This document shows positions 107-53,050 of a DNA stretch of 64,000 bases, piece after piece (position 1 is the stretch's first letter; each line of letters opens with the position of its first letter). The translations under genes and the position numbers were made by a program. The DNA is from Candidatus Woesearchaeota archaeon (GTDB lineage Archaea; Nanobdellota; Nanobdellia; Pacearchaeales; GW2011-AR1). The notes beneath the pieces were generated by a model. The model was not told the origin of the DNA, ran no database searches, and saw only the letters and a program-made list of their open reading frames with translations. The stretch spans positions 85,259 to 149,258 of the forward strand of contig CAYPFA010000003.1 in the NCBI GenBank assembly GCA_964410025.1. The letters are read 5' to 3'.

Positions 107-237
107 TTGCCCACGAGGAATTGACTTCCCCCAGGAACGATCCCTTGCGGAAACCCCGAGCGATTCACTTTTCAAGATGAACAACTCAAACTAGTGAAAT
201 GTAAATCACGAGTATTGGGGTGAAATTCCTAGCCCTA
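107..237 (-). other. non-coding GC-enriched segment with a degenerate tRNA-like 3' fragment
   Basis: No ORF. Minus strand 135-109 reads CCTGGGGGAAGTCAATTCCTCGTGGGC, close to the T-arm/acceptor of the adjacent tRNA-Trp. No matching 5' acceptor strand found. Confidence 0.3.
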
Positions 238-309
238 TGGGCCCAGGAGGAATTGAACCCCCATCGCTAGCTTTGGAGGCTGGCAGATTAACCTTTATCC
301 TATGGACCC
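238..309 (-). tRNA. tRNA-Trp (anticodon CCA)
   Basis: 72-nt cloverleaf read by eye: acceptor GGGTCCA/TGGGCCC, D stem GGAT/ATCT, anticodon loop CTCCAAA, T arm GGGGG-TTCAATT-CCTCC, discriminator A. One C-A mismatch in the anticodon stem. Confidence 0.85.
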
Positions 310-8494: not shown

Positions 8495-8646
8495 TCCCCT
8501 CACCAGGAGTTGAACCGGGGTTTCGCGGGTCCTGCCGACATCATATTCTAACGAATACAATCTAATCACATTTCATCCTTTGCCGTTGGGCAATGTCCAT
8601 GCTAGTAAACTACAGCCACGCGCACTAACCGTTGTGCTATGAGGGG
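8495..8646 (-). tRNA. tRNA-Tyr (anticodon GUA) with 80-nt intron at 37/38
   Basis: Exon 1 is 8646-8610: CCCCTCA TA GCAC AACGGTTA GTGC G CGTGG CTGTAG. The intron is 8609-8530. Exon 2 is 8529-8495: C CCGCG AAAC CCCGG TTCAACT CCTGG TGAGGGG A. C1-G72 is typical of archaeal tRNA-Tyr. One C-U mismatch in the T stem. Confidence 0.85.
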
Positions 8647-18946: not shown

Positions 18947-19020
18947 GAGCCCATAGCGCAGCCTGGTAGCGCATCGCTCTGATACGGCGAGGGTCCTCAG
19001 TTCAAATCTGAGTGGGCTCA
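18947..19020 (+). tRNA. tRNA-Ile (anticodon GAU)
   Basis: GAGCCCA TA GCGC AGCCTGGTA GCGC A TCGCT CTGATAC GGCGA GGGTC CTCAG TTCAAAT CTGAG TGGGCTC A. All stems are perfect and a T-run follows. Confidence 0.95.
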
Positions 19021-19575
19021 TTTTTTCTATTGAACGAAGTGAAATAGAATTGAACTTCATATTATGAAGCTACGAAGTAGCTTTTCAAATCCGAGCAAAG
19101 AGGCTTTCATAATATTTTTAGAAATTTTTTAACATTAGAAAGAGCTCTTCGCGAGCCGAGTGGGCTCATTTTAGCATATTGAGTAAAACGAAATATGCCT
19201 TAAACTTCCTCATATTATTAATCAGACTTGACCAATGCAACTTGTTGCACTAATTTGTTCTTTTGATTTTCTGCAGAGCTGACTTTCGGCCAGGGCGAAC
19301 AAAACGCCTTTGTCTTCAAAATTTGAATTGCATAATTGCAAATGCATTTTGCGAGTTGAACTTTTCTTCAAAAGAAAAGTAAGCCTAGTTCTTTCTGAGT
19401 GGGCTCATTTTAGCATATTGAGTAAAACGAAATATGCCATGAATTCTCTCATATTATGAAGTGAATCGCATTCACATTTCAAATCCGAGCAAAGAGGCTT
19501 TCATAATATTTTTAGAAATTTTTTAACATTAGAAAGAGCTCTTCGCGAGCCGAGTGGGCTCATTTTCTATTTCAA
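19010..19575 (+). repeat. array of four copies of the tRNA-Ile 3' end (gagtgggctca+tttt) separated by modular hairpin-containing units
   Basis: Copies lie at 19010-19020, 19158-19168, 19397-19407 and 19552-19562. Block 19084-19172 is near-identical to 19478-19566, and block 19158-19200 to 19397-19439. Confidence 0.85.
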
Positions 19576-19608: not shown

Positions 19609-19821
19609 ATGACATTAGTAATTTCAGAACTTAGGGCAATTGCTGGAATAGAAGGATTAATTATAGATGGAGAGTTAGATAATTTACAAGATAGCGGAAA
19701 ATGTAATATTGCAAAATTGAATTTTTATTTAGATAATTTAAAAATTGGCGGAAAAATGAAGTCCTACGAATTTTATGTTGGAATATTTAATGATTTAATG
19801 CCGCAGATTTCCGTTTATTAA
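19609..19821 (+). CDS. hypothetical small protein
   Basis: 70-aa ORF with no motif. Confidence 0.3.
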   Translation: MTLVISELRAIAGIEGLIIDGELDNLQDSGKCNIAKLNFYLDNLKIGGKMKSYEFYVGIFNDLMPQISVY

Positions 19822-19864: not shown

Positions 19865-20170
19865 ATGAAACATGTAGTTAGCGGAAAATATGATTCAAGT
19901 ACGTCCGGAGTAGACTTGAGTGAAAGAGTGCTGACTAGGCTTTTTTATTCCAGAGAGGACAGGGAAGTGATGATACAAGCTGTTAAAAAAAGAGCAGAAT
20001 ATGCCGACGGGGATCCCGTAAGAATGTCGTCCGATGGATGGACAGAAATAAAAAGAGACGGCAAATGGAGCAGTGGATATTTTAATCATGATCTGAGAAC
20101 GGCGTTAGAAAAACGACAGCGTAATCAAATAGAGATTCTTCTAGACGAGATTGCACAGCATATACTTTAA
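19865..20170 (+). CDS. hypothetical protein
   Basis: 101-aa ORF with ATG start. Confidence 0.45.
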   Translation: MKHVVSGKYDSSTSGVDLSERVLTRLFYSREDREVMIQAVKKRAEYADGDPVRMSSDGWTEIKRDGKWSSGYFNHDLRTALEKRQRNQIEILLDEIAQHIL

Positions 20171-44650: not shown

Positions 44651-45277
44651 ATGTTTGAAATAACTATAGTGATAGATATTTTTGTGTATACTTTTATAGG
44701 AGTTTTCCTAGTAAATCTTATTCCCGTGTTCGGACCACCAACCTGGATGGTTCTTTCCTACATAGGGCTATTTTATGAAATACCATCAATACCTCTTTTT
44801 GTTCTGACTGCGCTTTTGGCAGCAGTTTGTGGAAGATTTTTACTTATACTTTTCTCTAAGAATATAATACGAAATAATTTATTTCCAAATAAGTACAAAA
44901 AAAATATGGACTATTTGCGAAATCGTTTTGAGAATAAACCATACTGGATATCCTTAATATTTTTTATTGATGCAGTCACGCCGCTTCCTTCAGATCAACT
45001 TTTTATTGCCTACGGATTAACAGGACAGAAAGCCCGATATGCACTTATTCCATTTGCATTAGGAAGATCCTTTACATACACTTTCTGGGCGATTACATCG
45101 ATAACTATTGCAAAACAAGCAACACTAAAAGCGCTCACAAACTTTTCATTTTTTAGCACCACATTCATCCTGATGGAAATTTTGCTTTGTTTTCTTTTAT
45201 ATTTTTATGTAAAGATTGACTGGCAATATCTAATTGTGAATCATCGTTTGAGATTAATTAATCACAATAAAAATTAG
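44651..45277 (+). CDS. DedA/SNARE-associated (VTT-domain) membrane protein
   Basis: 208 aa, multi-TM, with a GPPTW..L motif typical of DedA. Its stop codon overlaps the left att repeat by 2 nt. Confidence 0.7.
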   Translation: MFEITIVIDIFVYTFIGVFLVNLIPVFGPPTWMVLSYIGLFYEIPSIPLFVLTALLAAVCGRFLLILFSKNIIRNNLFPNKYKKNMDYLRNRFENKPYWISLIFFIDAVTPLPSDQLFIAYGLTGQKARYALIPFALGRSFTYTFWAITSITIAKQATLKALTNFSFFSTTFILMEILLCFLLYFYVKIDWQYLIVNHRLRLINHNKN

Positions 45278-45291
45278 AACGCCCAAACCGG
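45276..45291. repeat. att site, distal copy (orphan tRNA-Asp 3' end)
   Basis: agaacgcccaaaccgg is identical to 52975-52990. It contains the complement of CCGGTTTGGGCG, the tRNA 3' end. Confidence 0.8.
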
Positions 45292-45366
45292 ACGATTAGA
45301 GAAAGTATAACGCTCAACGTTATTTTGATAAATATAACAAGCTATACGACTATATAAACATTCACA

Positions 45367-46434
45367 TCACTTGTCTAATATCTTTTTTAGATTATCTAAA
45401 AACTCCTTTGTGTCTGCAAAATAATTGGGGTAAGCTTTCCTTAAATCGTTTGACGCGTCAACGCCAACAAGAACCACATCATATTCTTTTTTCCCTTGGT
45501 TTCTTTTTTCAGCTTTGGCGTAGTCTTCTACAGCCTTTTCTTCTTGTCCATATTGATAACCAGTAATATTTAACTTTTCTTCAAGGATATTCAGTTCTAA
45601 TAAAAAAAGTTTTAAATTTGGTGTCTCCTTAGATGCTCTTTCAAAAACCTGAACTGCCTTTGTCCAGCCATCCATAACTTTGATTACGTTTAATTCTTTC
45701 GCTATACGTTTAATTTCCAAATATAGCTCTTGCGGATCTGTAGGTGTATCGGGAATAAGAGGAGTGTTTTCCATAATAGCGAATGCAGAACTAACTAATT
45801 TGAAAAAATCCATCCATTCTTTTTTACCCTCATTAGACTTAATAGCCTGTCCTGTAAAAAAATCGGCAGTTTCTATAGCTGTAGCCCACAGATGCTGTAA
45901 CTTTGATCTTATCTGTACTTCTACGAGCAACCCATTGTATTCCTTTTTTCCTTCCTTATCACTCTTATATCTATAAATCAAATGAATACTTCTATAGCCA
46001 TCCTTCTTAGGGTAGGTTATATAGTCCTTCTCGTTTACTTTTTTATGTTTTAAGTCTCCACGGATGTACCCTTCTTTGTATAATTTTTGAGCCAGCTCTA
46101 CATTTGATGTAACGACCCTACATCCTCCAATATCTTGCATTTGAGATAATTTCATAGTTGGCTCTTGACCACCATATTTTCTTCCAAGTTTTTTTAATAT
46201 AGAAGGCAGTCTTTTTAGTCTTTGAACAGCCAATGAGTCCTTATCTATTTTTTCAGAAACATCTTTTAATCTTTTTTTAAATATATGCATAGGATATCGG
46301 TGAATTGCCCTCCAATTGTCCAAAATAGTTAAGGCTTTATCCAGCTCCTCGGAGGTGCTTTTTTCATCCAACAAGATATCTCCTGCCCAGTCTACTCTTG
46401 ACTTACTATATCCTTTTGGCTTTGCCCATACCAT
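45367..46434 (-). CDS. RelA/SpoT-domain nucleotide pyrophosphokinase (small alarmone synthetase / toxSAS-like) with extended C-terminal domain
   Basis: Synthetase motifs are RLKRLPSILKKL (RxKxxxSxxxK), DIGGCRVV, GYRSIHLIY and EVQIRSKLQHLWA. A ~150-aa helical C-terminal extension follows. Confidence 0.85.
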   Translation of the reverse strand: MVWAKPKGYSKSRVDWAGDILLDEKSTSEELDKALTILDNWRAIHRYPMHIFKKRLKDVSEKIDKDSLAVQRLKRLPSILKKLGRKYGGQEPTMKLSQMQDIGGCRVVTSNVELAQKLYKEGYIRGDLKHKKVNEKDYITYPKKDGYRSIHLIYRYKSDKEGKKEYNGLLVEVQIRSKLQHLWATAIETADFFTGQAIKSNEGKKEWMDFFKLVSSAFAIMENTPLIPDTPTDPQELYLEIKRIAKELNVIKVMDGWTKAVQVFERASKETPNLKLFLLELNILEEKLNITGYQYGQEEKAVEDYAKAEKRNQGKKEYDVVLVGVDASNDLRKAYPNYFADTKEFLDNLKKILDK

Positions 46435-46545
46435 AGAATATTGCGGATGAATAGATATTTAAATGTTGGTATTGCGCGGAAGTCTATCGAATATATAAAT
46501 TATAAATATAATGGTTTTACTTTTTTTGCGCGGTTATTTATCTTT

Positions 46546-47031
46546 TTATTGTTTTTTTGCGCAGTTATGTTTTACCGGCACCCTTTGCTCGTGTAAGTTT
46601 TCTTTTCTTGTAGACAATATTTCTTTTTGAGTGTTTCTGAATTCTTCCCACATTCTTTTAACGTTAGGATGCATTTTGTGATTAGAAATATACTTGCTGC
46701 TTTTTTTAATATTACATTTTAATCTGTCGATACTTCTCATTTGCGCAACCTTATCAGAAGAAATCATACCTTTCTCTTTTTTTATTGAAGTAAGTGGAAA
46801 ATCATATTTAATGAATTCTTTCCTGCTCATTGGTTTAAAGTCATAGCGAATAAATCTTTCTCTTAAATTTCGTATATATGAAACTCTACATTTGGAATTA
46901 TGATCTATTCCCAATTCTTCGACGACTTTCTTAGGTATTTGTATAGTCAGAGTAAAGTATTCCTTCTCGTTTTTTATGTGCTTTTTTCTTGAAGGGATTA
47001 CTGACTTATCCAAAACCCTTATCTTATCCAT
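46546..47031 (-). CDS. hypothetical protein with N-terminal AbrB/SpoVT-like segment (candidate antitoxin/regulator)
   Basis: 161 aa. FTLTIQIPKKVVEELGIDHNSKCRVSY resembles the swapped-hairpin DNA-binding motif. Lies directly upstream of the RelA/SpoT gene on the same strand. Confidence 0.45.
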   Translation of the reverse strand: MDKIRVLDKSVIPSRKKHIKNEKEYFTLTIQIPKKVVEELGIDHNSKCRVSYIRNLRERFIRYDFKPMSRKEFIKYDFPLTSIKKEKGMISSDKVAQMRSIDRLKCNIKKSSKYISNHKMHPNVKRMWEEFRNTQKEILSTRKENLHEQRVPVKHNCAKKQ

Positions 47032-47065
47032 ACTGGTAGATGCTTTGTTTGTTTAAATACCTTAT

Positions 47066-47081
47066 TTTTCTGCGCAGAAAA
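47066..47081. promoter_or_regulatory. perfect 16-bp palindrome in a divergent promoter region (candidate operator)
   Basis: ttttctgcgcagaaaa is its own reverse complement. Lies 35 nt upstream of the 47031 start and between divergent genes. Confidence 0.4.
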
Positions 47082-47209
47082 TTTTTATGAACAATGAGAA
47101 ATTAAATAAATTATGAGCGTTAGAAAAAATGCAAACTGGGTGGATGTAATAATTAGCTTAATTAAATATGAGAAGAAGCCTCACGAGGAGGCTCCTTCGG
47201 ATAAGATAG

Positions 47210-47473
47210 ATGTTAAAACAAACACGGGCTCTTAAACCACGAGGCTTGTATTCCAAGTTTATAGAAAGACTTAGAGAAGCGGAGAAGTCTATTCCGCTTG
47301 GGTCTAAGAAAGATTATATTCCTTTTCCAGTTATATTTGAAAAAGTGTGTAGAAACTTTTCTCTCAAAAAAGACGATGCATTTGAAATTTTATTTATGCT
47401 GAGGGATTTCGGATTCATTGAAGTCGTTCCTTTTCACGGAATTAAATTGAAGTATGAGGTGAAAAATGTCTGA
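47210..47473 (+). CDS. hypothetical small protein (possibly wHTH)
   Basis: 87-aa ORF on the element. Confidence 0.45.
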   Translation: MLKQTRALKPRGLYSKFIERLREAEKSIPLGSKKDYIPFPVIFEKVCRNFSLKKDDAFEILFMLRDFGFIEVVPFHGIKLKYEVKNV

Positions 47474-47675
47474 TAAGATTTGGGGAGTAGATATCACTTC
47501 TGATTTGCCAATCTATGAAGACGAAATAGATGCCTTCTTAGAAAGAGAGAGACGAGCCTCAGGTAAGAAGAGAAAAAAGAAGAATAAACATAACTCTTCC
47601 AACTATAATATATATTATATTTTGTATTACATTTTTAATATAATTATACTAATTAAAGGAGTATCTTTTATTTAA
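47466..47675 (+). CDS. hypothetical small protein
   Basis: 69-aa ORF overlapping the previous stop by 8 nt. Basic patch, then a hydrophobic tail. Confidence 0.3.
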   Translation: MSDKIWGVDITSDLPIYEDEIDAFLERERRASGKKRKKKNKHNSSNYNIYYILYYIFNIIILIKGVSFI

Positions 47676-47685
47676 TCTTTTCTTT

Positions 47686-47943
47686 ATGGTGTATCATCCA
47701 GACAAAATAGTTTTTAGAAAGAGCCTTTCTTTTAGATTAAAAAAAGAGCACTTCGAAGCATTGGACGAGTTATTAGAAAGACATCGAGATCAATATGACT
47801 CTTGGAGCCATATAGTGCGGTGTGCAATTATACATTTACTAAATTATGAGCGAGAGCAGGAGGAAAAACAAAATGCAAGAAATAAAAAATCTAAACATTT
47901 CGGAAAAGGACAAAATCTGTTTCGAGGAACTAAAAATTCCTAA
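47686..47943 (+). CDS. ribbon-helix-helix (CopG-like) protein
   Basis: LSFRLKKEHFEALDELLERH is a typical RHH N-terminal strand-helix. Confidence 0.5.
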   Translation: MVYHPDKIVFRKSLSFRLKKEHFEALDELLERHRDQYDSWSHIVRCAIIHLLNYEREQEEKQNARNKKSKHFGKGQNLFRGTKNS

Positions 47944-48091
47944 GACTATTGCCGAGATTGCCGTAATCTTAGATACAACGTATAATTATGCGTTTACAAA
48001 GGTGAAAGTGTGGGAAGCGAGAGGCTGGGTAAAAAGAATTCAGTCTAAACGCGCTGTTAAATACTATCTTAATGGAGACGAACTTCAATAA
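47873..48091 (+). CDS. winged-helix DNA-binding protein
   Basis: TIAEIAVILDTTYNYAFTKVKVWEARGWVKR is wHTH-like. ATG 47873 is preceded by GGAGGA; the ORF track starts at 47846. Confidence 0.5.
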   Translation: MQEIKNLNISEKDKICFEELKIPKTIAEIAVILDTTYNYAFTKVKVWEARGWVKRIQSKRAVKYYLNGDELQ

Positions 48092-48373
48092 GAATAAACC
48101 TGTCGAATAGATCTTTCCCAATGTAAGTAAGAAAAGGAAAGAAAAGGAAAGAAGCACAAAACAAAGTATAAAACGCTCACTCTGGACATTGTCAAAGTAG
48201 GCACGGGCTTCCATTTTGAAAAGTTGTCGCAATCGTATCTTGATGACACGATGATTTTTGGGAATTTTTTAAAATAAACAGCGTTTTATTAAGTATTAAA
48301 GAGCCTTATGTTTCGCGGAGTATATCTTACTGCTTAATAAAACATTTAAAAACTTGTAAATGTTAAAAAACAA

Positions 48374-49252
48374 ATGAGTAAAACGCAAGTTCTTGCATTT
48401 ATTTTAAGTATTCTTGGACTAATAATCCCAGTAGTAGGCTTAATATTCTCCGTTCCAGCGCTACTAATGAGCATTGCTCAACTAAAAAAGAATAAGAGCG
48501 GGATGATTGTCGCCACAAGAATTATTTCCATAGTTGCCATAATCGTTTCTGTGGTTGTCTTAATCTCATTTTATTTCTTCTTTTCTTATTTGCCAGAAAA
48601 ACAATTCCAAGAAACTAAGGTATCTTTAATTCTTACTCCGGAGAGTAGCTCTGCAAATATGCCGTATGATTTAGATGTTCTAATGTCAAGGTTCGCTATG
48701 TCCTCTGGAAAAGTTGAAGGAGTGATTAAAGAGAACAAAATTCTACTAAACGTAAGTTTATCTGATTTTGATAGCCAAATATATAGATACCTTATCAATA
48801 CTTCGTTCTTTGAAGCAAAAATTGGTAATGACGTTGTTTTTACGGGCGGAGAGGATATTACCTACGTGGGCACAACTGGTCAAGATGCAGGAATCTATTC
48901 CTGTGATCAATATAGTGAGGGCTATTCGTGTCAATTTAGATTTATAATCTATTTGTCTAATTCCGCGGCACAAAGGCAAGCTACGTTAACCTCTGACCTT
49001 TCTACGAATCCATCTTATGGCGGAAAATACTTAGATAAACCACTCGATTTATATGTTGATAATAATCTAGTTGATACGCTACAAATTGGCACAGATTTGA
49101 GAGGCAAGTTTGTTTCACAAATTCAAATTTCTGGTTCTGGAAATGGGCTAACAACCGAAGAGGCATACGAGAATGCAAAGATAAATATGAAAAAATTGCA
49201 GATCTCATTAAAATCAGGCAGACATCTTTCTTCTAACTATTTAGTTAATTAA
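48374..49252 (+). CDS. membrane-anchored protein with extracellular domain
   Basis: 292 aa. Two N-terminal TM helices, then a soluble domain. Confidence 0.55.
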   Translation: MSKTQVLAFILSILGLIIPVVGLIFSVPALLMSIAQLKKNKSGMIVATRIISIVAIIVSVVVLISFYFFFSYLPEKQFQETKVSLILTPESSSANMPYDLDVLMSRFAMSSGKVEGVIKENKILLNVSLSDFDSQIYRYLINTSFFEAKIGNDVVFTGGEDITYVGTTGQDAGIYSCDQYSEGYSCQFRFIIYLSNSAAQRQATLTSDLSTNPSYGGKYLDKPLDLYVDNNLVDTLQIGTDLRGKFVSQIQISGSGNGLTTEEAYENAKINMKKLQISLKSGRHLSSNYLVN

Positions 49253-49273
49253 GCACTAATCGAAACTCTCTCT

Positions 49274-50464
49274 TTATGGAGTTAGTGTTTTTATTAAGTA
49301 TGTCGCATTTTGTGAATTTGGATTATATACTACTAGTCCTCCGGTGCTCACATTACAATTCATCTGTTTATTTCTTTGATTGTAGAAAGAACAACCTGGA
49401 TAACTGCTATAGTCAGACCCTTGCATAAAATTATTGTAATCTTGCTCAGAAAGAACAAAATGAACCGTTATAGGTAAGGTGCTATTAAATTCAAGTCTAA
49501 GTTCGTTTGTCTTTGTTGTATCGGTAAATGGATAATATGCAACATATCCTGCTCGTAAAGTATCATTTGTTACTGCAGGTATAAGCGTTATTTTTTTAAT
49601 TGGAGGAATATAATATTGAGAAGAAATAATATTTTGCGGAATAACTTTTGTGCTAATGACTGTACCCAAATCATCTAAACACTGACATTCCATATCTTGG
49701 GTATTTGGATTATAGATATAAGAGAATTTTGTGGCAGCAGGTATATCTTGACAATAGCTTTCGCAAAATGAATCCATATTACTTATCTGCTGTGGGGTAA
49801 AAATATCTTCTGCGGAAGATACATTCATAGACGCAATACTGAAAATTCCCCATATCAAACTCAATGCTATGAAAATAATTATGATTGAATTGACAATACC
49901 TAATTTTGTTTTCTTAAATGTATTGGCAACTCTTTCTGAAAAATTAAAATAAAGCAACCAAAATATCGCGACAATAACATTCCTACCATCACTACTATAA
50001 ACATCACCAATTAAATAAGATGGCAAACCAAATGAAGAAATAACACTATAAATGCTGCTTGTTAATAAAAATAAATAAAATCCCTTCGCGAATCTTATAG
50101 CATTTTCAGACTCATTGAAAATACTTACTCCACAAAAAATACTCAAACCGATAACAAAGAGGTTGTATATTATAACCACTCCGCTATTATCTCCTGAAAA
50201 TAAACTAAATAATATAAACACGGGAGAAATAACTGTTAAAACAAATGCAGCAAACCAAAGCCATCCTCCGACGCCAGATTTCTTTTCGTCTTTCTTGCTC
50301 TTTTCTTCTTTTTTATCTTCGGTTTTTGTAACAGATAATCTATCGCTTATTCGTTTGGGAGAATCTTTAATCTTGCTCCAACAGTCTTTACAAAAATAGC
50401 TATCATTATCTGAGAAAGAATCCCAAAGCGAAGTTTTTTTCTTGCACCTTGAACATAAAACCAT
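49274..50464 (-). CDS. multi-pass membrane protein with N-terminal zinc ribbon and Cys-rich extracellular C-terminal domain
   Basis: The N-terminal zinc ribbon reads CSRCKK..CKDC. It is followed by ~5 TM helices and a C-terminal domain with several Cys. ATG at 50464; the ORF track starts at GTG 50473. Confidence 0.55.
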   Translation of the reverse strand: MVLCSRCKKKTSLWDSFSDNDSYFCKDCWSKIKDSPKRISDRLSVTKTEDKKEEKSKKDEKKSGVGGWLWFAAFVLTVISPVFILFSLFSGDNSGVVIIYNLFVIGLSIFCGVSIFNESENAIRFAKGFYLFLLTSSIYSVISSFGLPSYLIGDVYSSDGRNVIVAIFWLLYFNFSERVANTFKKTKLGIVNSIIIIFIALSLIWGIFSIASMNVSSAEDIFTPQQISNMDSFCESYCQDIPAATKFSYIYNPNTQDMECQCLDDLGTVISTKVIPQNIISSQYYIPPIKKITLIPAVTNDTLRAGYVAYYPFTDTTKTNELRLEFNSTLPITVHFVLSEQDYNNFMQGSDYSSYPGCSFYNQRNKQMNCNVSTGGLVVYNPNSQNATYLIKTLTP

Positions 50465-50556
50465 AGTTTTCACTATATTAGTTACTATTTAAATTATTTG
50501 ATATTATAAGCACCAGATTAAGAAACATTTTAATATCTTCTTATATACTAAATTTA

Positions 50557-51687
50557 ATGGTTCATTGTGATGAATGCGGGAAGAAAATTGAAGGATTACC
50601 CTTTCATTGTAAATATTGCAAGGAGAATTTTTGTGATATTCACAGATTACCAGAAGACCACCATTGCACCGGAATTGATAGAAGCAATATTTTTTATAAA
50701 TTAAAAAAAGAAAATATAGAAAGAACAGATTGGTCAGCAGACAATGAGGCAGAAAAAAATGTATTGCACAACAAAGAAAAACATTCTGGAAAGAAGAAGA
50801 ATAGGTTTTCAGAAATTTTGGACAAAAATCTTGATTGGTTAAACGATCGTGAGCATCATTCATATGACTGGAAGGGAAGGGCAAATTATCTTCTAACTAT
50901 TTTAGTCGTATTTGTTGTTTCTATAATTGCCTACAAGATATTTTATGATAATGCTATAAAATTGAATAGTTTTAATTTTTGGATAATCAATCTCGCAGGA
51001 GTTCTTCTTTTGATCTCTATTTTTTTTATAATTAAGTATGGATGGAAAATTATAACAGAAATCCCAAATGTAATCAAGAGGCAAAGGAATTGGTTAAGGT
51101 GGTTGATTATTATTCTAATTTTAATTGCTGTGTGGCAAGCATATGAGAATAGAGATACGCTATTCAATCCCATATTGGATTTTAAAGAAAAAACAAATTT
51201 TTCATATTTTAATCCTCTTGATATAAACTATACGAGTGCAGGAGAAAAAACAAAAGACGTCTCAGGAAGCTTGTTTGAGAATTTGAAAAATACGGTTACC
51301 GTTCCAGAAAGAGACTATGATCTCATCGAAACCCGAATTTTTGAATTGGTCAATGAGGAGAGAACAAGATATAATGCCAGACCATTAAAATTAAGCTCTA
51401 ATCTTGACAGTCTTGCAAGAAAATGGAGTGAAAAGATGATTGCAGAAAACTTTTTTGAACATAGCGGATATAATGTTGGAGAAAATATTGGAGAGGTGCC
51501 AATACATTATAATGTTGTTGGCTGCGGATCTACCTACACAAATGAAGCTATGGCACAATGTTTTGTTACTGGATGGATAGAAAGTCCCGGGCATCATCAA
51601 AATATGATTGATAAGTCATATTCAGTTACGGGAGTAGGTATTGCTTGTGATATCTCGCAGTGTAGAGCAACTCAAATGTTTAGTTAA
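50557..51687 (+). CDS. AN1-type zinc finger / 3-TM / CAP (SCP/PR-1, YkwD-like) domain fusion protein
   Basis: The N-terminus CDECGKK..FHCKYCKENFCDIHRLPEDHHC matches the AN1 pattern, and three TM segments follow. The C-terminal domain (RYNARPLKLS..LARKWSEKM..FEHSG..SPGHHQNM..VGIA) matches CAP. Confidence 0.7.
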   Translation: MVHCDECGKKIEGLPFHCKYCKENFCDIHRLPEDHHCTGIDRSNIFYKLKKENIERTDWSADNEAEKNVLHNKEKHSGKKKNRFSEILDKNLDWLNDREHHSYDWKGRANYLLTILVVFVVSIIAYKIFYDNAIKLNSFNFWIINLAGVLLLISIFFIIKYGWKIITEIPNVIKRQRNWLRWLIIILILIAVWQAYENRDTLFNPILDFKEKTNFSYFNPLDINYTSAGEKTKDVSGSLFENLKNTVTVPERDYDLIETRIFELVNEERTRYNARPLKLSSNLDSLARKWSEKMIAENFFEHSGYNVGENIGEVPIHYNVVGCGSTYTNEAMAQCFVTGWIESPGHHQNMIDKSYSVTGVGIACDISQCRATQMFS

Positions 51688-52985
51688 AACTTACGTATTG
51701 TCTTTATTTTCTTCTTAATTAACTCCAAAATTTCTGGATCTTGAAGAAGTTTATTCATTGTGTCATCCGCAACACTTTTCTGAGTTTCTGCTTCAACAAT
51801 CTTATTCGCTTCTTCTTCATTTAAACTCATTCCACACTTCTTGCAAAATATACTGGTAGACTCGTTTACTTCCTTACATCTAATACAAACAATGTTTTTC
51901 AAAACATCTTTTGGCTTCTGCTTCTTAACTTCTAATCCATTTTCTGCAAGAATAACATTATCCGTCTCCCTTCCGTTCATATGAATGTAAACTCCGCACA
52001 TCTTGGACGATTGAGCCCAACCGAGATATTGTTTCATACCTGCCTCAGGCATTACAGAAGCTAATTCAGTTGCTCTCGAATGCCTAAAAAGATGGTTGTA
52101 TATTCGTTTAGTTATTCCTGCTCTTTTGGCACTATTCTTAATTATGGAACTAAGTCTCGAATAACTTAATATATGGTCTGACTGCGTGTTATACCAAAGC
52201 GACGCTTCTCTATCTGTATTCAACGGATGCTGGTTTATCCATTCTTTTAGATATGGCATTGACTTAACCAGAAGGACTTGTCTCATCCCCGTTTTACCTT
52301 CTGGAAACATTATTCTTGCGCCATAATCTTCAAAAGAAATATTTTTAATTTTTAGACTACCAACTTCTGAAATTCTTCCTCCACTTTCTGCAAGAACAGA
52401 AACAAAACATTTGTCTCTTGTTGTTTTACAAAACTGGATTATCTTCTTAATTTCTTCTGGGGTTAGAAGCTCTTCTGGGAGTTTAGATTTATTTTGTGCA
52501 ATATTTATGTTAATCCACTTAACCCTTTCCGGAAGCGCATCGCCTCTTTCTGAGCCTTCAATAAATCGATAAAGTTTTCTAATCATTATCTTAATTCCTT
52601 TTTTTGTTTCTTCTGCAAAAGGTTCGGCATTTAACTCAGAAACAACACGCCTTAGATCTTCTTTTGTAGCCTCTTGAAAATCTTTCTTTAAATGTCTATC
52701 AAACCAAACAATATCAACTAAATATCTTCCAACTTTGGCATAACCAATATTTTCACTTAGTAAATAGTTCTTGAAAGAAATTGCTGTCTTTTTATTATTT
52801 TCAGAATAGAAATATGTTGGCTTACTTCTCTTGCTTGTTTCTTTTAGAACTTCTTCTGGATGTTCAATTCTAAAAACAATTCTTTCAAGTTGGTGTTTGT
52901 AGTTGTGTATGCTCATATCGACGATAAAATCGTCCCAGCTTATAAAGGACGACCGTCGAGCATATAACTTTTCCAGAACGCCCAA
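51684..52985 (-). CDS. int: tyrosine recombinase / integrase with C-terminal zinc ribbon
   Basis: Catalytic pattern GGRISEV (Arg), HLFRHSRAT (HxxR) and GVYIH (Tyr), plus C-terminal CIRCKE..CKKCG. The ORF reaches into the tRNA-Asp 3' end, so the true start is probably internal. Confidence 0.88.
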   Translation of the reverse strand: MGVLEKLYARRSSFISWDDFIVDMSIHNYKHQLERIVFRIEHPEEVLKETSKRSKPTYFYSENNKKTAISFKNYLLSENIGYAKVGRYLVDIVWFDRHLKKDFQEATKEDLRRVVSELNAEPFAEETKKGIKIMIRKLYRFIEGSERGDALPERVKWININIAQNKSKLPEELLTPEEIKKIIQFCKTTRDKCFVSVLAESGGRISEVGSLKIKNISFEDYGARIMFPEGKTGMRQVLLVKSMPYLKEWINQHPLNTDREASLWYNTQSDHILSYSRLSSIIKNSAKRAGITKRIYNHLFRHSRATELASVMPEAGMKQYLGWAQSSKMCGVYIHMNGRETDNVILAENGLEVKKQKPKDVLKNIVCIRCKEVNESTSIFCKKCGMSLNEEEANKIVEAETQKSVADDTMNKLLQDPEILELIKKKIKTIRKF

Positions 52986-52990
52986 ACCGG
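52975..52990. repeat. att site, tRNA-proximal copy
   Basis: agaacgcccaaaccgg overlaps tRNA-Asp positions 62-73 plus 4 nt downstream. Confidence 0.8.
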
Positions 52991-53050
52991 GAATCGCACC
53001 CGGGTCCTCGCCGCGACAGGGCGATGTACTGACTACTATACTATTTGGGC
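52979..53050 (-). tRNA. tRNA-Asp (anticodon GUC)
   Basis: GCCCAAA TA GTAT AGTAGTCA GTAC A TCGCC CTGTCGC GGCGA GGAC CCGGG TGCGATT CCCGG TTTGGGC G. All stems pair. The T-loop has G rather than U at position 55. Confidence 0.9.

What the first reader, a model, noticed from the sequence alone, without database searches (positions are those of the whole stretch)
19010..19575. Four copies of the tRNA-Ile 3' end in modular units whose hairpins differ in sequence but conserve pairing
The 3' end of tRNA-Ile plus a T-run (gagtgggctcatttt) recurs at 19010, 19158, 19397 and 19552. After copies 1, 2 and 3 comes a 7-bp hairpin with an 11-nt loop that begins and ends with GA. The stem after copy 1 is TTCTATT/AATAGAA (19025-19049). 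The stem after copies 2 and 3 is GCATATT/AATATGC (19174-19198 and 19413-19437). Units 1 and 3 then share tcatattatgaag and a second hairpin with unrelated stem sequences. That hairpin is AAGCTAC-gaa-GTAGCTT (19067-19083) in unit 1 and GTGAAT-cgc-ATTCAC (19461-19475) in unit 3. A near-identical ~90-nt block follows in both (19084-19172 and 19478-19566). Fully compensatory stems in two hairpins argue for selection on RNA or DNA structure rather than neutral decay. Copy 4 is followed by ttttctatt, like the native tRNA trailer ttttttctatt, so copies 1 and 4 also look like an attL/attR pair. Possible explanations are stacked remnants of tRNA-targeting integrative elements, a tRNA-linked family of small structured RNAs, or miniature mobile elements using the tRNA end as target.
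Basis: seen in the sequence. Interest (0 to 1): 0.7.

Follow-up and report, generated by a model that had tools for sequence, protein, structure and literature searches.

The report
tRNA-end-bounded hairpin cassette array
Downstream of a tRNA-Ile gene in a small DPANN archaeon lie three short non-coding, hairpin-rich cassettes, each ending in a copy of the tRNA's last 15 bases; they belong to a widespread, apparently undescribed family of such cassettes that come and go behind tRNA genes in related archaea.

Summary
GAGTGGGCTCATTTT occurs exactly four times, and three independent assemblies give the same arrangement.

The array is not a local oddity. Related DPANN (Nanoarchaeota/Woesearchaeota-like) genomes carry 70-240-nt non-coding units behind tRNA-Ile, tRNA-Gly, tRNA-Ser and, in this window, tRNA-Trp. 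Each unit ends in a copy of that genome's own tRNA 3' end. Most contain a long imperfect hairpin ("H") with strong covariation. Window unit 2 is a clear H member. The 90-nt block of units 1 and 3 is only a weak, diverged match.

Units are absent in close relatives. Their number differs between 99%-identical genomes. H types do not track host relatedness.

The same window holds a 7.7-kb element with a tyrosine integrase at tRNA-Asp, bounded by a 16-nt repeat of the same geometry.

Best reading (confidence about 0.5): miniature, non-autonomous integrative cassettes stacked at a tRNA att core, with hairpins kept by selection. Rivals are a tRNA-linked structured RNA and inert scars of larger elements. 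No expression or recombination data exist.

The parts
18947..19020 (+). tRNA-Ile(GAT), intact; its last 11 nt plus TTTT form repeat copy 1 (t1, 19010-19024)
   Evidence: ARAGORN and Rfam; pattern search
19025..19049 (+). Hairpin 1, variant a: TTCTATT-GAACGAAGTGA-AATAGAA
   Evidence: Sequence; hairpin scans; covariation with variant b and the L117 variant
19057..19069 (+). Shared 13-mer TCATATTATGAAG (also 19449-19461; diverged copy TCATATTATTAA at 19210-19221)
19067..19083 (+). Hairpin 2, variant a: AAGCTAC-GAA-GTAGCTT
19084..19157 (+). Core of the 90-nt block. It has a T-loop-like TTCAAATCCGAG (19084-19095) and a long imperfect hairpin H' (19095-19151). GAGCC (19153-19157) pairs with the following tRNA-end copy to form a micro-hairpin at 19153-19167.
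   Evidence: Identical second copy; RNA fold. The architecture matches the L117 and L075 units. The match to the H covariance model is only weak: 10.4 bits, E about 2.
19158..19172 (+). tRNA-end copy 2 (t2), closing unit 1 (19025-19172)
19174..19198 (+). Hairpin 1, variant b: GCATATT-GAGTAAAACGA-AATATGC
19289..19372 (+). H hairpin of unit 2, a member of subfamily A (GGCGA-ACAAAACGC ... GCATTTTG-CGAG)
   Evidence: nhmmer with a model built only from other genomes, E 0.07. Full-length alignment to model R2, 52.5 bits, but this sequence was among that model's seeds.
19360..19380 (+). Perfect 9-bp hairpin in unit 2, followed by a decayed right arm AAAGTAAGCCTAG (19376-19388)
19394..19411 (+). tRNA-end copy 3 (t3, TCTGAGTGGGCTCATTTT), closing unit 2 (19173-19411)
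19413..19437 (+). Hairpin 1, variant b, second copy
19461..19475 (+). Hairpin 2, variant b: GTGAAT-CGC-ATTCAC
19477..19551 (+). Second copy of the block core: T-loop-like 19478-19489, H' 19489-19545, GAGCC 19547-19551
19552..19571 (+). tRNA-end copy 4 (t4) plus CTATT, matching the trailer of copy 1. It closes unit 3 (19412-19566) and the whole array.
107..237 (-). Same kind of feature behind tRNA-Trp (238-309, minus strand). It has an inverted H hairpin (157-214 on the + strand), an inverted T-arm-like piece (217-235) and a decayed direct copy of the tRNA-Trp T-arm and acceptor end (107-133).
   Evidence: nhmmer; model R2, E 4.6e-4; sequence reading
45276..52990 (-). 7.7-kb integrated element at tRNA-Asp(GTC) (52979-53050, minus strand). 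It is bounded by the 16-nt repeat CCGGTTTGGGCGTTCT (52975-52990 and 45276-45291) and encodes a tyrosine integrase (51687-52916). It is a candidate source of the recombinase activity, not part of the array.
   Evidence: integrase PF00589, 88 bits

Best explanation
The array is a stack of three miniature, non-coding integrative cassettes (148, 239 and 155 nt) inserted one after another at the 3' end of tRNA-Ile.

**What the parts are**
- The repeated 15-mer is the last 3 bases of the T stem, the acceptor 3' strand, the discriminator base and a 4-nt trailer. I read it as the recombination core (att core).
- Every insertion regenerates this core, so further cassettes can stack.
- Each cassette is built from exchangeable structured modules. 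Hairpin 1 sits just after the core. A long imperfect hairpin (H) sits just before the next core.

**Shown**
- Pairing in these modules is conserved while the sequence changes.
- The cassettes are members of a family found behind tRNA genes across related DPANN archaea.
- Cassettes are gained, lost and swapped.

**Inferred**
- They carry no genes, so they must be moved in trans. The most likely agent is a tRNA-3'-end-targeting tyrosine integrase like the one in the 7.7-kb element at tRNA-Asp in this window.
- The hairpins would be the parts of the site that the recombination machinery needs, as double-stranded palindromes or as folded single strands.
For: **Real repeat**
- Exact four-fold repeat, far above chance; identical in three independent assemblies.

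**Empty and occupied sites in relatives**
- L041 and L071 have tRNA-Ile followed directly by the L15e gene.
- L037 has one different 82-nt unit.
- L072 (112-nt insert) and L075 (empty) share a homologous flank.

**Family census**
- In 75 non-redundant loci (321 kb), an H hairpin lies within 250 nt downstream of 15 of 49 tRNA-Ile, 1 of 13 tRNA-Gly and 1 of 3 tRNA-Ser.
- In the window, H occurs only at tRNA-Ile and tRNA-Trp.
- Each unit ends in its own host's tRNA end: 17-18 nt starting at the T-loop AAAT, 10 nt at tRNA-Gly, 11-14 nt plus TTTT here.

**Structure**
- 92.6% of cells pair against 72% in shuffles and at most 54% when partners are slid. 20 of 26 pairs have double changes.
- Hairpin 1 has three variants; all stem cells pair, and 4 of 7 pairs are compensated.
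- 5 of the 7 hairpins of this class in 470 kb lie right after a tRNA end.

**Turnover**
- L067 and L070 have flanks 99% identical but differ by exactly one unit of another H type.
- H similarity is incongruent with flank similarity.

**Integrase link**
- Window element 45276-52990 has a 16-nt repeat of the same geometry and a PF00589 integrase.
- L152 has tRNA-Glu plus an integrase in a 7.8-kb element. L150 and L151 have two tRNA-Asp-like ends 85 nt apart, with a hairpin between them, just upstream of the integrase.
Against: - No integrase lies in or next to any cassette.
- No H was found at the ends of the integrase-bearing elements examined.
- No H was confirmed in IMG/VR viral contigs by two degenerate exact-match pattern scans, which would miss diverged copies.
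- No circular or excised form, and no empty site within the same population, was seen.
- The duplicated tRNA segment varies from 10 to about 65 nt between loci, more than one fixed core would give.
- The 90-nt block of units 1 and 3 matches the H model only weakly, E about 2.
- G.U sites outnumber A.C sites on the tRNA-sense strand by roughly 16 to 7. This would also fit an RNA role.
- Conserved loop bases with covarying stems point to a single-stranded form. That is unusual for a simple tyrosine-integrase att site.
Confidence: 0.5

Rival explanations
1. The units are genes or cis-elements for small structured RNAs linked to tRNA genes. They would be co-transcribed with the tRNA or made from their own promoter. 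The hairpins and the tRNA-end mimic (T-stem halves plus the acceptor 3' strand) would act in processing, termination, protein binding or as a tRNA decoy or guide. The repeated tRNA end would be kept identical by selection or gene conversion.
For: - Stems covary while loop and internal-loop bases stay conserved.
- G.U pairs exceed A.C pairs on the tRNA-sense strand.
- 14 of 15 H copies behind tRNA-Ile have the same orientation as the tRNA.
- In many units the copy of the T-stem 5' strand tracks the host tRNA, including G.U-compatible variants.
- Each tRNA-end copy in the window is followed by a T-run, the archaeal terminator signal.
Against: - H is inverted relative to the tRNA at window tRNA-Trp, in L045 and probably in L082.
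- Units 1 and 3 fold better on the minus strand: z -3.5 against -1.9.
- Units are absent from many close relatives, and their number varies within a species, so they are dispensable.
- A T6 run directly after the tRNA should stop most read-through.
- No Rfam family matches, and I saw no C/D boxes.
- The T-stem pairing is broken in some units, e.g. L095 and L113.
Confidence: 0.22
2. The units are inert scars. Larger tRNA-targeting integrative elements or proviruses integrated repeatedly and were then deleted down to their att-proximal ends. The hairpins would be leftovers, such as former promoter or terminator palindromes, and gene conversion would explain the identical blocks.
For: - tRNA 3' fragments left by integrated elements are a well-known phenomenon in archaea (PMC9897764).
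- The same window has an intact 7.7-kb integrase element with the same att geometry.
- L044 has a 2.1-kb insert at tRNA-Ile.
- L150 and L151 show stacked tRNA-like ends next to an integrase.
- The small ORFs between the array and L15e (70 aa and 101 aa) vary between relatives.
Against: - Neutral scars should not keep pairing through 20 of 26 compensated pairs, nor stay recognisable between hosts whose neighbouring protein is only 42-50% identical.
- Sizes cluster tightly at 104-117 nt for most units.
- The same H types appear in distantly related hosts, and different types appear in close hosts.
- H was not found at the ends of the integrase elements examined.
Confidence: 0.18
3. H is a palindromic transposable element of the REPIN, PATE or MITE kind, moved as single-stranded DNA by a Y1 (IS200/IS605-type) or other transposase. 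It would prefer T-arm-like hairpins, so it accumulates in dispensable tRNA 3' fragments.
For: - H is a 60-65-nt imperfect palindrome flanked on both sides by (C/T)GAG.
- It occurs in both orientations.
- It interrupts the tRNA-like fragment at different points: the T loop, the T stem, and the T-stem/acceptor junction.
- A Y1_Tnp gene exists in a related genome, L152.
Against: - The end hairpins of the L152 IS200/605 copy are unlike H, and no Y1 gene lies in the window or the other loci.
- H is almost never found away from tRNA ends: 18 of 22 copies lie within 250 nt of a tRNA 3' end.
- This model does not by itself explain the tRNA-end duplication that bounds every unit, or hairpin 1.
Confidence: 0.08
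4. The array is an assembly artefact, such as a chimeric or mis-collapsed repeat.
For: Short-read unitigs break inside the 90-nt repeat.
Against: - Three independent JGI assemblies give identical sequence across the array. One is a 118-kb contig.
- Analogous arrays exist in other genomes: L063, L070 and L117.
Confidence: 0.02

Closest known systems
tRNA-gene-targeting integrative elements with tyrosine integrases, their tandem accretion, and integrase-less derivatives (CIMEs, cis-mobilizable elements); from my own knowledge. tRNA fragments in Thermococcaceae are described in PMC9897764.
   Same: Each unit is bounded by direct repeats identical to the tRNA 3' end, and the tRNA stays intact. Units stack in tandem at one tRNA, and empty sites exist in relatives. 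An integrase element with the same core geometry lies in the same window.
   Different: Units are 70-240 nt instead of kilobases and carry no genes. They are built from conserved, covarying hairpins. The same hairpin family recurs at several tRNA species.
MITEs, REPINs and PATEs (small palindromic non-autonomous mobile elements)
   Same: Short, non-coding and hairpin-forming, with several subfamilies. Presence is variable and both orientations occur.
   Different: There are no terminal inverted repeats at the unit ends and no fixed-length target duplication (10 to about 65 nt). Location is almost exclusively at tRNA 3' ends. No linked transposase was found.
Integron cassette arrays with attC sites, and Xer-exploiting elements such as CTX phage with a folded single-stranded attP
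   Same: Arrays of short cassettes are separated by a short conserved core next to an imperfect palindrome whose structure, not sequence, is conserved. Insertion regenerates the target, so cassettes stack.
   Different: No IntI and no R'/R'' core sequences are present. The core is a tRNA end rather than attI or dif. The cassettes carry no ORFs. Recombination through a single strand is pure inference here.
tRNA-linked small RNAs and tRNA-like processing elements in archaea (C/D box sRNAs next to tRNAs, K-turn/K-loop motifs bound by L7Ae); from my own knowledge
   Same: Small structured elements sit next to tRNA genes. GA...GA loops and tandem G.A internal loops resemble K-loop/K-turn features.
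   Different: There are no C/D boxes and no Rfam match. The elements occur in either orientation, are dispensable and are mobile between hosts.

Membership tests
Integrated element at a tRNA att site (tyrosine-integrase type) | Insert bounded by direct repeats identical to the 3' part of an intact tRNA gene | tested here: met
   Four exact copies in the window. The same holds in L037, L063, L072, L067 and others, each with the host's own sequence.
Integrated element at a tRNA att site (tyrosine-integrase type) | Integrase gene inside the element | tested here: not met
   No ORF of note lies within 19021-19566. The only integrase in the window is at 51687-52916, in a separate element.
Integrated element at a tRNA att site (tyrosine-integrase type) | Unoccupied site in related genomes | tested here: met
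   L041, L071, L075, L096 and L073 lack units. L067 and L070 differ by one unit at 99% flank identity.
Integrated element at a tRNA att site (tyrosine-integrase type) | Excision or circular intermediate, and integrase-dependent recombination at the core | not testable with these tools
   Needs reads or an experiment.
MITE | Terminal inverted repeats at the element ends plus a fixed-length target-site duplication | tested here: not met
   The inverted repeat (H) is internal to the unit. The duplicated target ranges from 10 to about 65 nt.
IS200/IS605-derived PATE or REPIN | Hairpins matching those of a co-resident Y1 transposase element | tested here: not met
   The Y1_Tnp gene is found only in L152. 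Its end hairpins are unlike H, and there is none in the window.
Integron | IntI integrase and attC sites with conserved R''/R' (GTTRRRY) cores | tested here: not met
   The array has no such cores; the boundaries are the tRNA end. No integrase gene adjoins the array. A window-wide IntI search was not done beyond tblastn with the window integrase.
Any described RNA family (Rfam 15) | Match to a curated covariance model | tested here: not met
   Only tRNA hits at the gathering threshold. Nothing credible at E up to 5 on the array or on L118.
H hairpin family defined here (models R1 and R2) | Significant match to the covariance model, placed just 5' of a tRNA-end copy | tested here: met
   This verdict applies to unit 2 and the tRNA-Trp copy only.
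- Unit 2 (19289-19372): nhmmer E 0.07 with an independent model; 52.5 bits with R2, but it was a seed of that model.
- tRNA-Trp copy (157-214): E 4.6e-4.
- The 90-nt block of units 1 and 3 is inconclusive: only 10.4 bits, E about 2. Its architecture is shared with L117 and L075.

The most novel reading that the evidence does not exclude
DPANN archaea may carry a tRNA-anchored cassette system. Short non-coding cassettes would be recognised through folded hairpins that are conserved in structure and variable in sequence, as with integron attC sites or the CTX phage attP. They would be captured, stacked and shuffled at the 3' ends of tRNA genes by a lineage-wide tyrosine recombinase. On this reading the tRNA end acts as an attI-like platform, and the hairpin modules are the mobile units themselves, not debris of larger elements.
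Probability: 0.2. Interest if true: 0.8.

Novelty: new variant of a known kind. Interest (0 to 1): 0.6.

Why it matters
**Genome biology.** DPANN archaea have tiny, streamlined genomes, so a recurrent, structured, non-coding element family kept behind essential tRNA genes is unexpected.

**If the cassettes are mobile.** They would be the smallest known site-specific integrative units. They would also give a handle on how tRNA-targeting integrases of uncultured archaea recognise their sites.

**If they are RNAs.** They would be a new tRNA-linked RNA class that mimics part of the tRNA.

**Practical points.** They generate tRNA-like fragments that can confuse tRNA annotation, and repeats that break short-read assemblies. 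Models R1 and R2 make a genome-wide census directly possible.

Tried and rejected
**Searches that found nothing relevant**
- The genome-contig scan for two tRNA-end copies 125-155 nt apart returned only bacterial tandem tRNAs and a coding repeat in a Woesearchaeota MAG.
- Viral-contig scans found no copies of the tRNA end.
- Pattern hits for two H signatures in viral contigs were not confirmed by the covariance models.
- No relatives of the window integrase were found in viral contigs.
- Rfam gave nothing for the units at either the gathering or E-value threshold.
- Three literature searches found no description of such units; a fourth search failed on syntax.

**Ideas tested and dropped**
- C/D box sRNA, bulge-helix-bulge intron and classical K-turn readings of H and hairpin 1 were considered from the sequence and predicted structures. 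None of the defining motifs is present.
- Promoter inside H: the AT-rich boxes turned out to be the arms of the hairpin.
- Origin of unit 3 by unequal crossing-over between units 1 and 2: the predicted unit order and hairpin 2 sequence do not match.
- A link to IS200/IS605 was rejected.
- H was not found at the ends of the integrase-bearing elements L150-L155.

Full report
**1.

- tRNA-Ile(GAT) lies at 18947-19020.
- Its last 11 bases plus TTTT (GAGTGGGCTCATTTT) occur exactly at 19010, 19158, 19397 and 19552. There are no further matches in the window, even with two mismatches; 0.15 are expected by chance.
- The block 19083-19172 is 100% identical to 19477-19566. The segment 19158-19221 is 91% identical to 19397-19460.
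- The region has six perfect hairpins with stems of at least 6 bp in 546 nt. The window average is 1.7 +/- 1.3.
- Three JGI assemblies from different samples are identical across the array. Logan unitigs stop 30 nt inside the 90-nt repeat, as a de Bruijn graph would at a true repeat. An assembly artefact is therefore very unlikely.

**2. Context**

The window is archaeal. It encodes ribosomal protein L15e, TrmB-type regulators and an intron-bearing tRNA. Homologues of its proteins are labelled Nanoarchaeota, Woesearchaeota or Pacearchaeota by their sources. G+C content is about 33%. The order DUF7575/Hsp20-like gene, tRNA-Ile, L15e is conserved in relatives.

**3. Relatives show empty, single and multiple states**

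I fetched about 90 related loci through the upstream protein.

- L041 (77% protein identity) and L071 (same tRNA end as the window) have the tRNA followed directly by L15e.
- L037 (80%) has one 82-nt unit of different sequence, closed by TTCTGAGTGGGCTCATTTT.
- L063 has two identical 78-nt tandem units.
- L072 has a 112-nt insert relative to L075, whose flank is homologous.
- L044 has a 2.1-kb insert at the same tRNA.

In every case the repeat is that genome's own tRNA end.

**4. A widespread hairpin family**

- The L072 unit has homologues in many loci. An HMM built from five units and two covariance models (R1, R2) find about 23 distinct copies in 321 kb.
- Eighteen lie within 250 nt downstream of a tRNA: 15 of 49 tRNA-Ile(GAT), 1 of 13 tRNA-Gly(CCC) and 1 of 3 tRNA-Ser(GGA). 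L114 has a second tRNA-Gly case.
- Three copies (L065 1235-1322, L129, L055) have no tRNA directly upstream.
- The typical unit is 104-117 nt. It consists of:
  - the tRNA trailer;
  - GGAC-N2-GTCC;
  - a copy of the host T-stem 5' strand;
  - CGA;
  - a 60-65-nt imperfect hairpin "H", in at least two subfamilies;
  - GAGTAAAAT;
  - the host T-stem 3' strand, acceptor strand and discriminator.
- The identity with the tRNA starts at the T-loop AAAT and runs for 17-18 nt in nine or more lineages.
- H is strongly supported as a structure. RNAalifold finds 10 and 11 compensated pairs in the two subfamilies.
- On the model-fitted alignment, 92.6% of cells pair against 72% in shuffles and at most 54% when partners are slid. 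20 of 26 pairs show double changes. This alignment leans towards the structure by construction.
- No Rfam family matches.

**5. The window array re-read**

- **Unit 2.** It contains a clear subfamily-A H at 19289-19372, a 9-bp hairpin and a decayed right arm before copy 3.
- **Units 1 and 3.** They share the plan of the L117 (tRNA-Ser) and L075 (tRNA-Gly) units: core, T-run, hairpin 1, spacer, T-loop-like TTCAAAT(T)CCGAG, long hairpin, (C/T)GAG, tRNA end. Their long hairpin matches model R2 only weakly (10.4 bits, E about 2), so I call this membership probable rather than shown.
- **A tRNA fragment in the block.** If the hairpin is removed from the block, TTTCAAATC-CGAG-TGGGCTCA remains. This is the tRNA's TTCAAATC-TGAG-TGGGCTCA with one change. 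This is my reading of the sequence.
- **tRNA-Trp.** In the window, H occurs only at tRNA-Ile and behind tRNA-Trp (157-214, E 4.6e-4). There it is inverted, and a decayed copy of the tRNA-Trp end lies at 107-133.

**6. Hairpins 1 and 2**

- **Hairpin 1 class.** Hairpins with a stem of at least 6 bp and a GA-N7-GA loop number seven in 470 kb searched on both strands; shuffles give about one. Five sit directly after a tRNA end or its copy: three in the window and two in L117.
- **Hairpin 1 covariation.** The three stem versions (TTCTATT, GCATATT, TGCTGTT) pair in all 21 cells, and four of seven pairs change on both sides. The loops are related: GAACGAAGTGA, GAATGAAATGA, GAGTAAAACGA.
- **Hairpin 2.** It has no homologue elsewhere. 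Its two versions share no stem sequence yet lie between a shared 13-mer and an identical 90-mer. Gradual compensatory change cannot produce that, so the units look like mosaics of exchanged modules. This is inference.

**7. Turnover**

- L067 and L070 are 99% identical in their flanks. They differ by exactly one unit, which carries the other H subfamily.
- H similarity does not follow host similarity. L095 and L102 have flanks 82% identical but H only 70% identical. L102 and L123 have flanks 69% identical but H 86% identical.
- H occurs in both orientations: at window tRNA-Trp, in L045, and by my reading in L082.

**8. A matching recombinase system**

- The 3' end of tRNA-Asp plus TTCT (16 nt) is repeated 7.7 kb away. 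The first gene of the enclosed element is a tyrosine integrase (PF00589, 88 bits).
- Its family is common in Nanoarchaeota, Woesearchaeota and Pacearchaeota MAGs at about 50% identity.
- L152 has tRNA-Glu, then an integrase, then a 7.8-kb element bounded by a 13-14-nt repeat.
- L150 and L151 have two tRNA-Asp-like ends 85 nt apart, with a hairpin between them, just upstream of the integrase.
- The core geometry is the same as that of the window 15-mer: a few T-stem bases, the acceptor strand, the discriminator and 3-4 trailer bases.

**9. Interpretation**

Shown:
- The repeat is real.
- Family membership of unit 2 is established.
- Structural conservation holds for H and hairpin 1.
- Units are absent from relatives, and their number varies.
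- An integrase element with like geometry lies in the same window.

Inferred:
- The 15-mer is an att core.
- The units are non-autonomous cassettes moved in trans.
- The hairpins are needed for that process.

The alternatives are a tRNA-linked structured RNA, inert scars of larger elements, and a palindromic transposon that favours T-arm-like targets. They are weighed in the rival list.

The main gaps are:
- no integrase or H association was found at the ends of full-length elements;
- there is no population-level evidence of excision;
- there are no expression data.

**10. Novelty**

tRNA-end duplications from integrative elements are well known (for example PMC9897764). I did not find a description of a conserved family of 70-240-nt gene-less cassettes, with covarying hairpins, stacked at several tRNA species in DPANN archaea. 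The searchable library is limited. I therefore rate this a new variant of a known kind.

Noticed in passing
window 45276-52990 (minus strand): A 7.7-kb integrated element at tRNA-Asp(GTC). It is bounded by the 16-nt repeat CCGGTTTGGGCGTTCT and carries a tyrosine integrase (51687-52916), a CAP/zf-AN1 protein (50557-51687) and a RelA/SpoT-domain protein (45367-46434). Right after the tRNA lies a long hairpin whose loop holds a TATA-like box and whose 3' arm holds the integrase start codon.
   Followed up: partly
window 107-237 (behind tRNA-Trp, 238-309 minus strand): An inverted H hairpin (157-214 on the + strand), an inverted T-arm-like piece (217-235) and a decayed direct copy of the tRNA-Trp T-arm and acceptor (107-133).
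   Followed up: partly
window 8495-8646 (minus strand): A 152-nt tRNA gene with a long intron (Rfam tRNA, 38.8 bits) that ARAGORN missed in its default run. No 3'-end duplication was seen nearby.
   Followed up: no
window 19609-19821 and 19865-20170: Two small ORFs (70 and 101 aa, no Pfam match) lie between the array and L15e. The 70-aa ORF contains a 27-nt internal repeat and is absent from L037. The 101-aa ORF has a 99-aa counterpart in L037, and both ORFs are absent from L041. This may be cargo of an older insertion.
   Followed up: partly
L044 2594-4771: A 5' fragment of tRNA-Ile (ATGAGGCTGTGGCGCAG) with its promoter is followed by a 2.1-kb insert (small membrane ORFs, an HNH protein) and then a complete tRNA-Ile. 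This element duplicated the 5' rather than the 3' part of the tRNA.
   Followed up: no
L150 4900-5040 and L151 1-165: Two tRNA-Asp-like 3' fragments lie 85 nt apart with a hairpin (CTCCCTT-TTCAAGA-AGGGAG) between them, directly upstream of an integrase gene. L150 differs from L151 upstream of the T loop, which marks the crossover point.
   Followed up: partly
window about 47101-47650: This stretch has the highest density of perfect short hairpins in the window (7 in 546 nt). It lies inside the integrated element at tRNA-Asp.
   Followed up: no
L152 18602-19042: An IS200/IS605-type Y1 transposase gene with GC-rich end hairpins, about 850 nt beyond the distal att of the tRNA-Glu element. It is unrelated to H.
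   Followed up: yes
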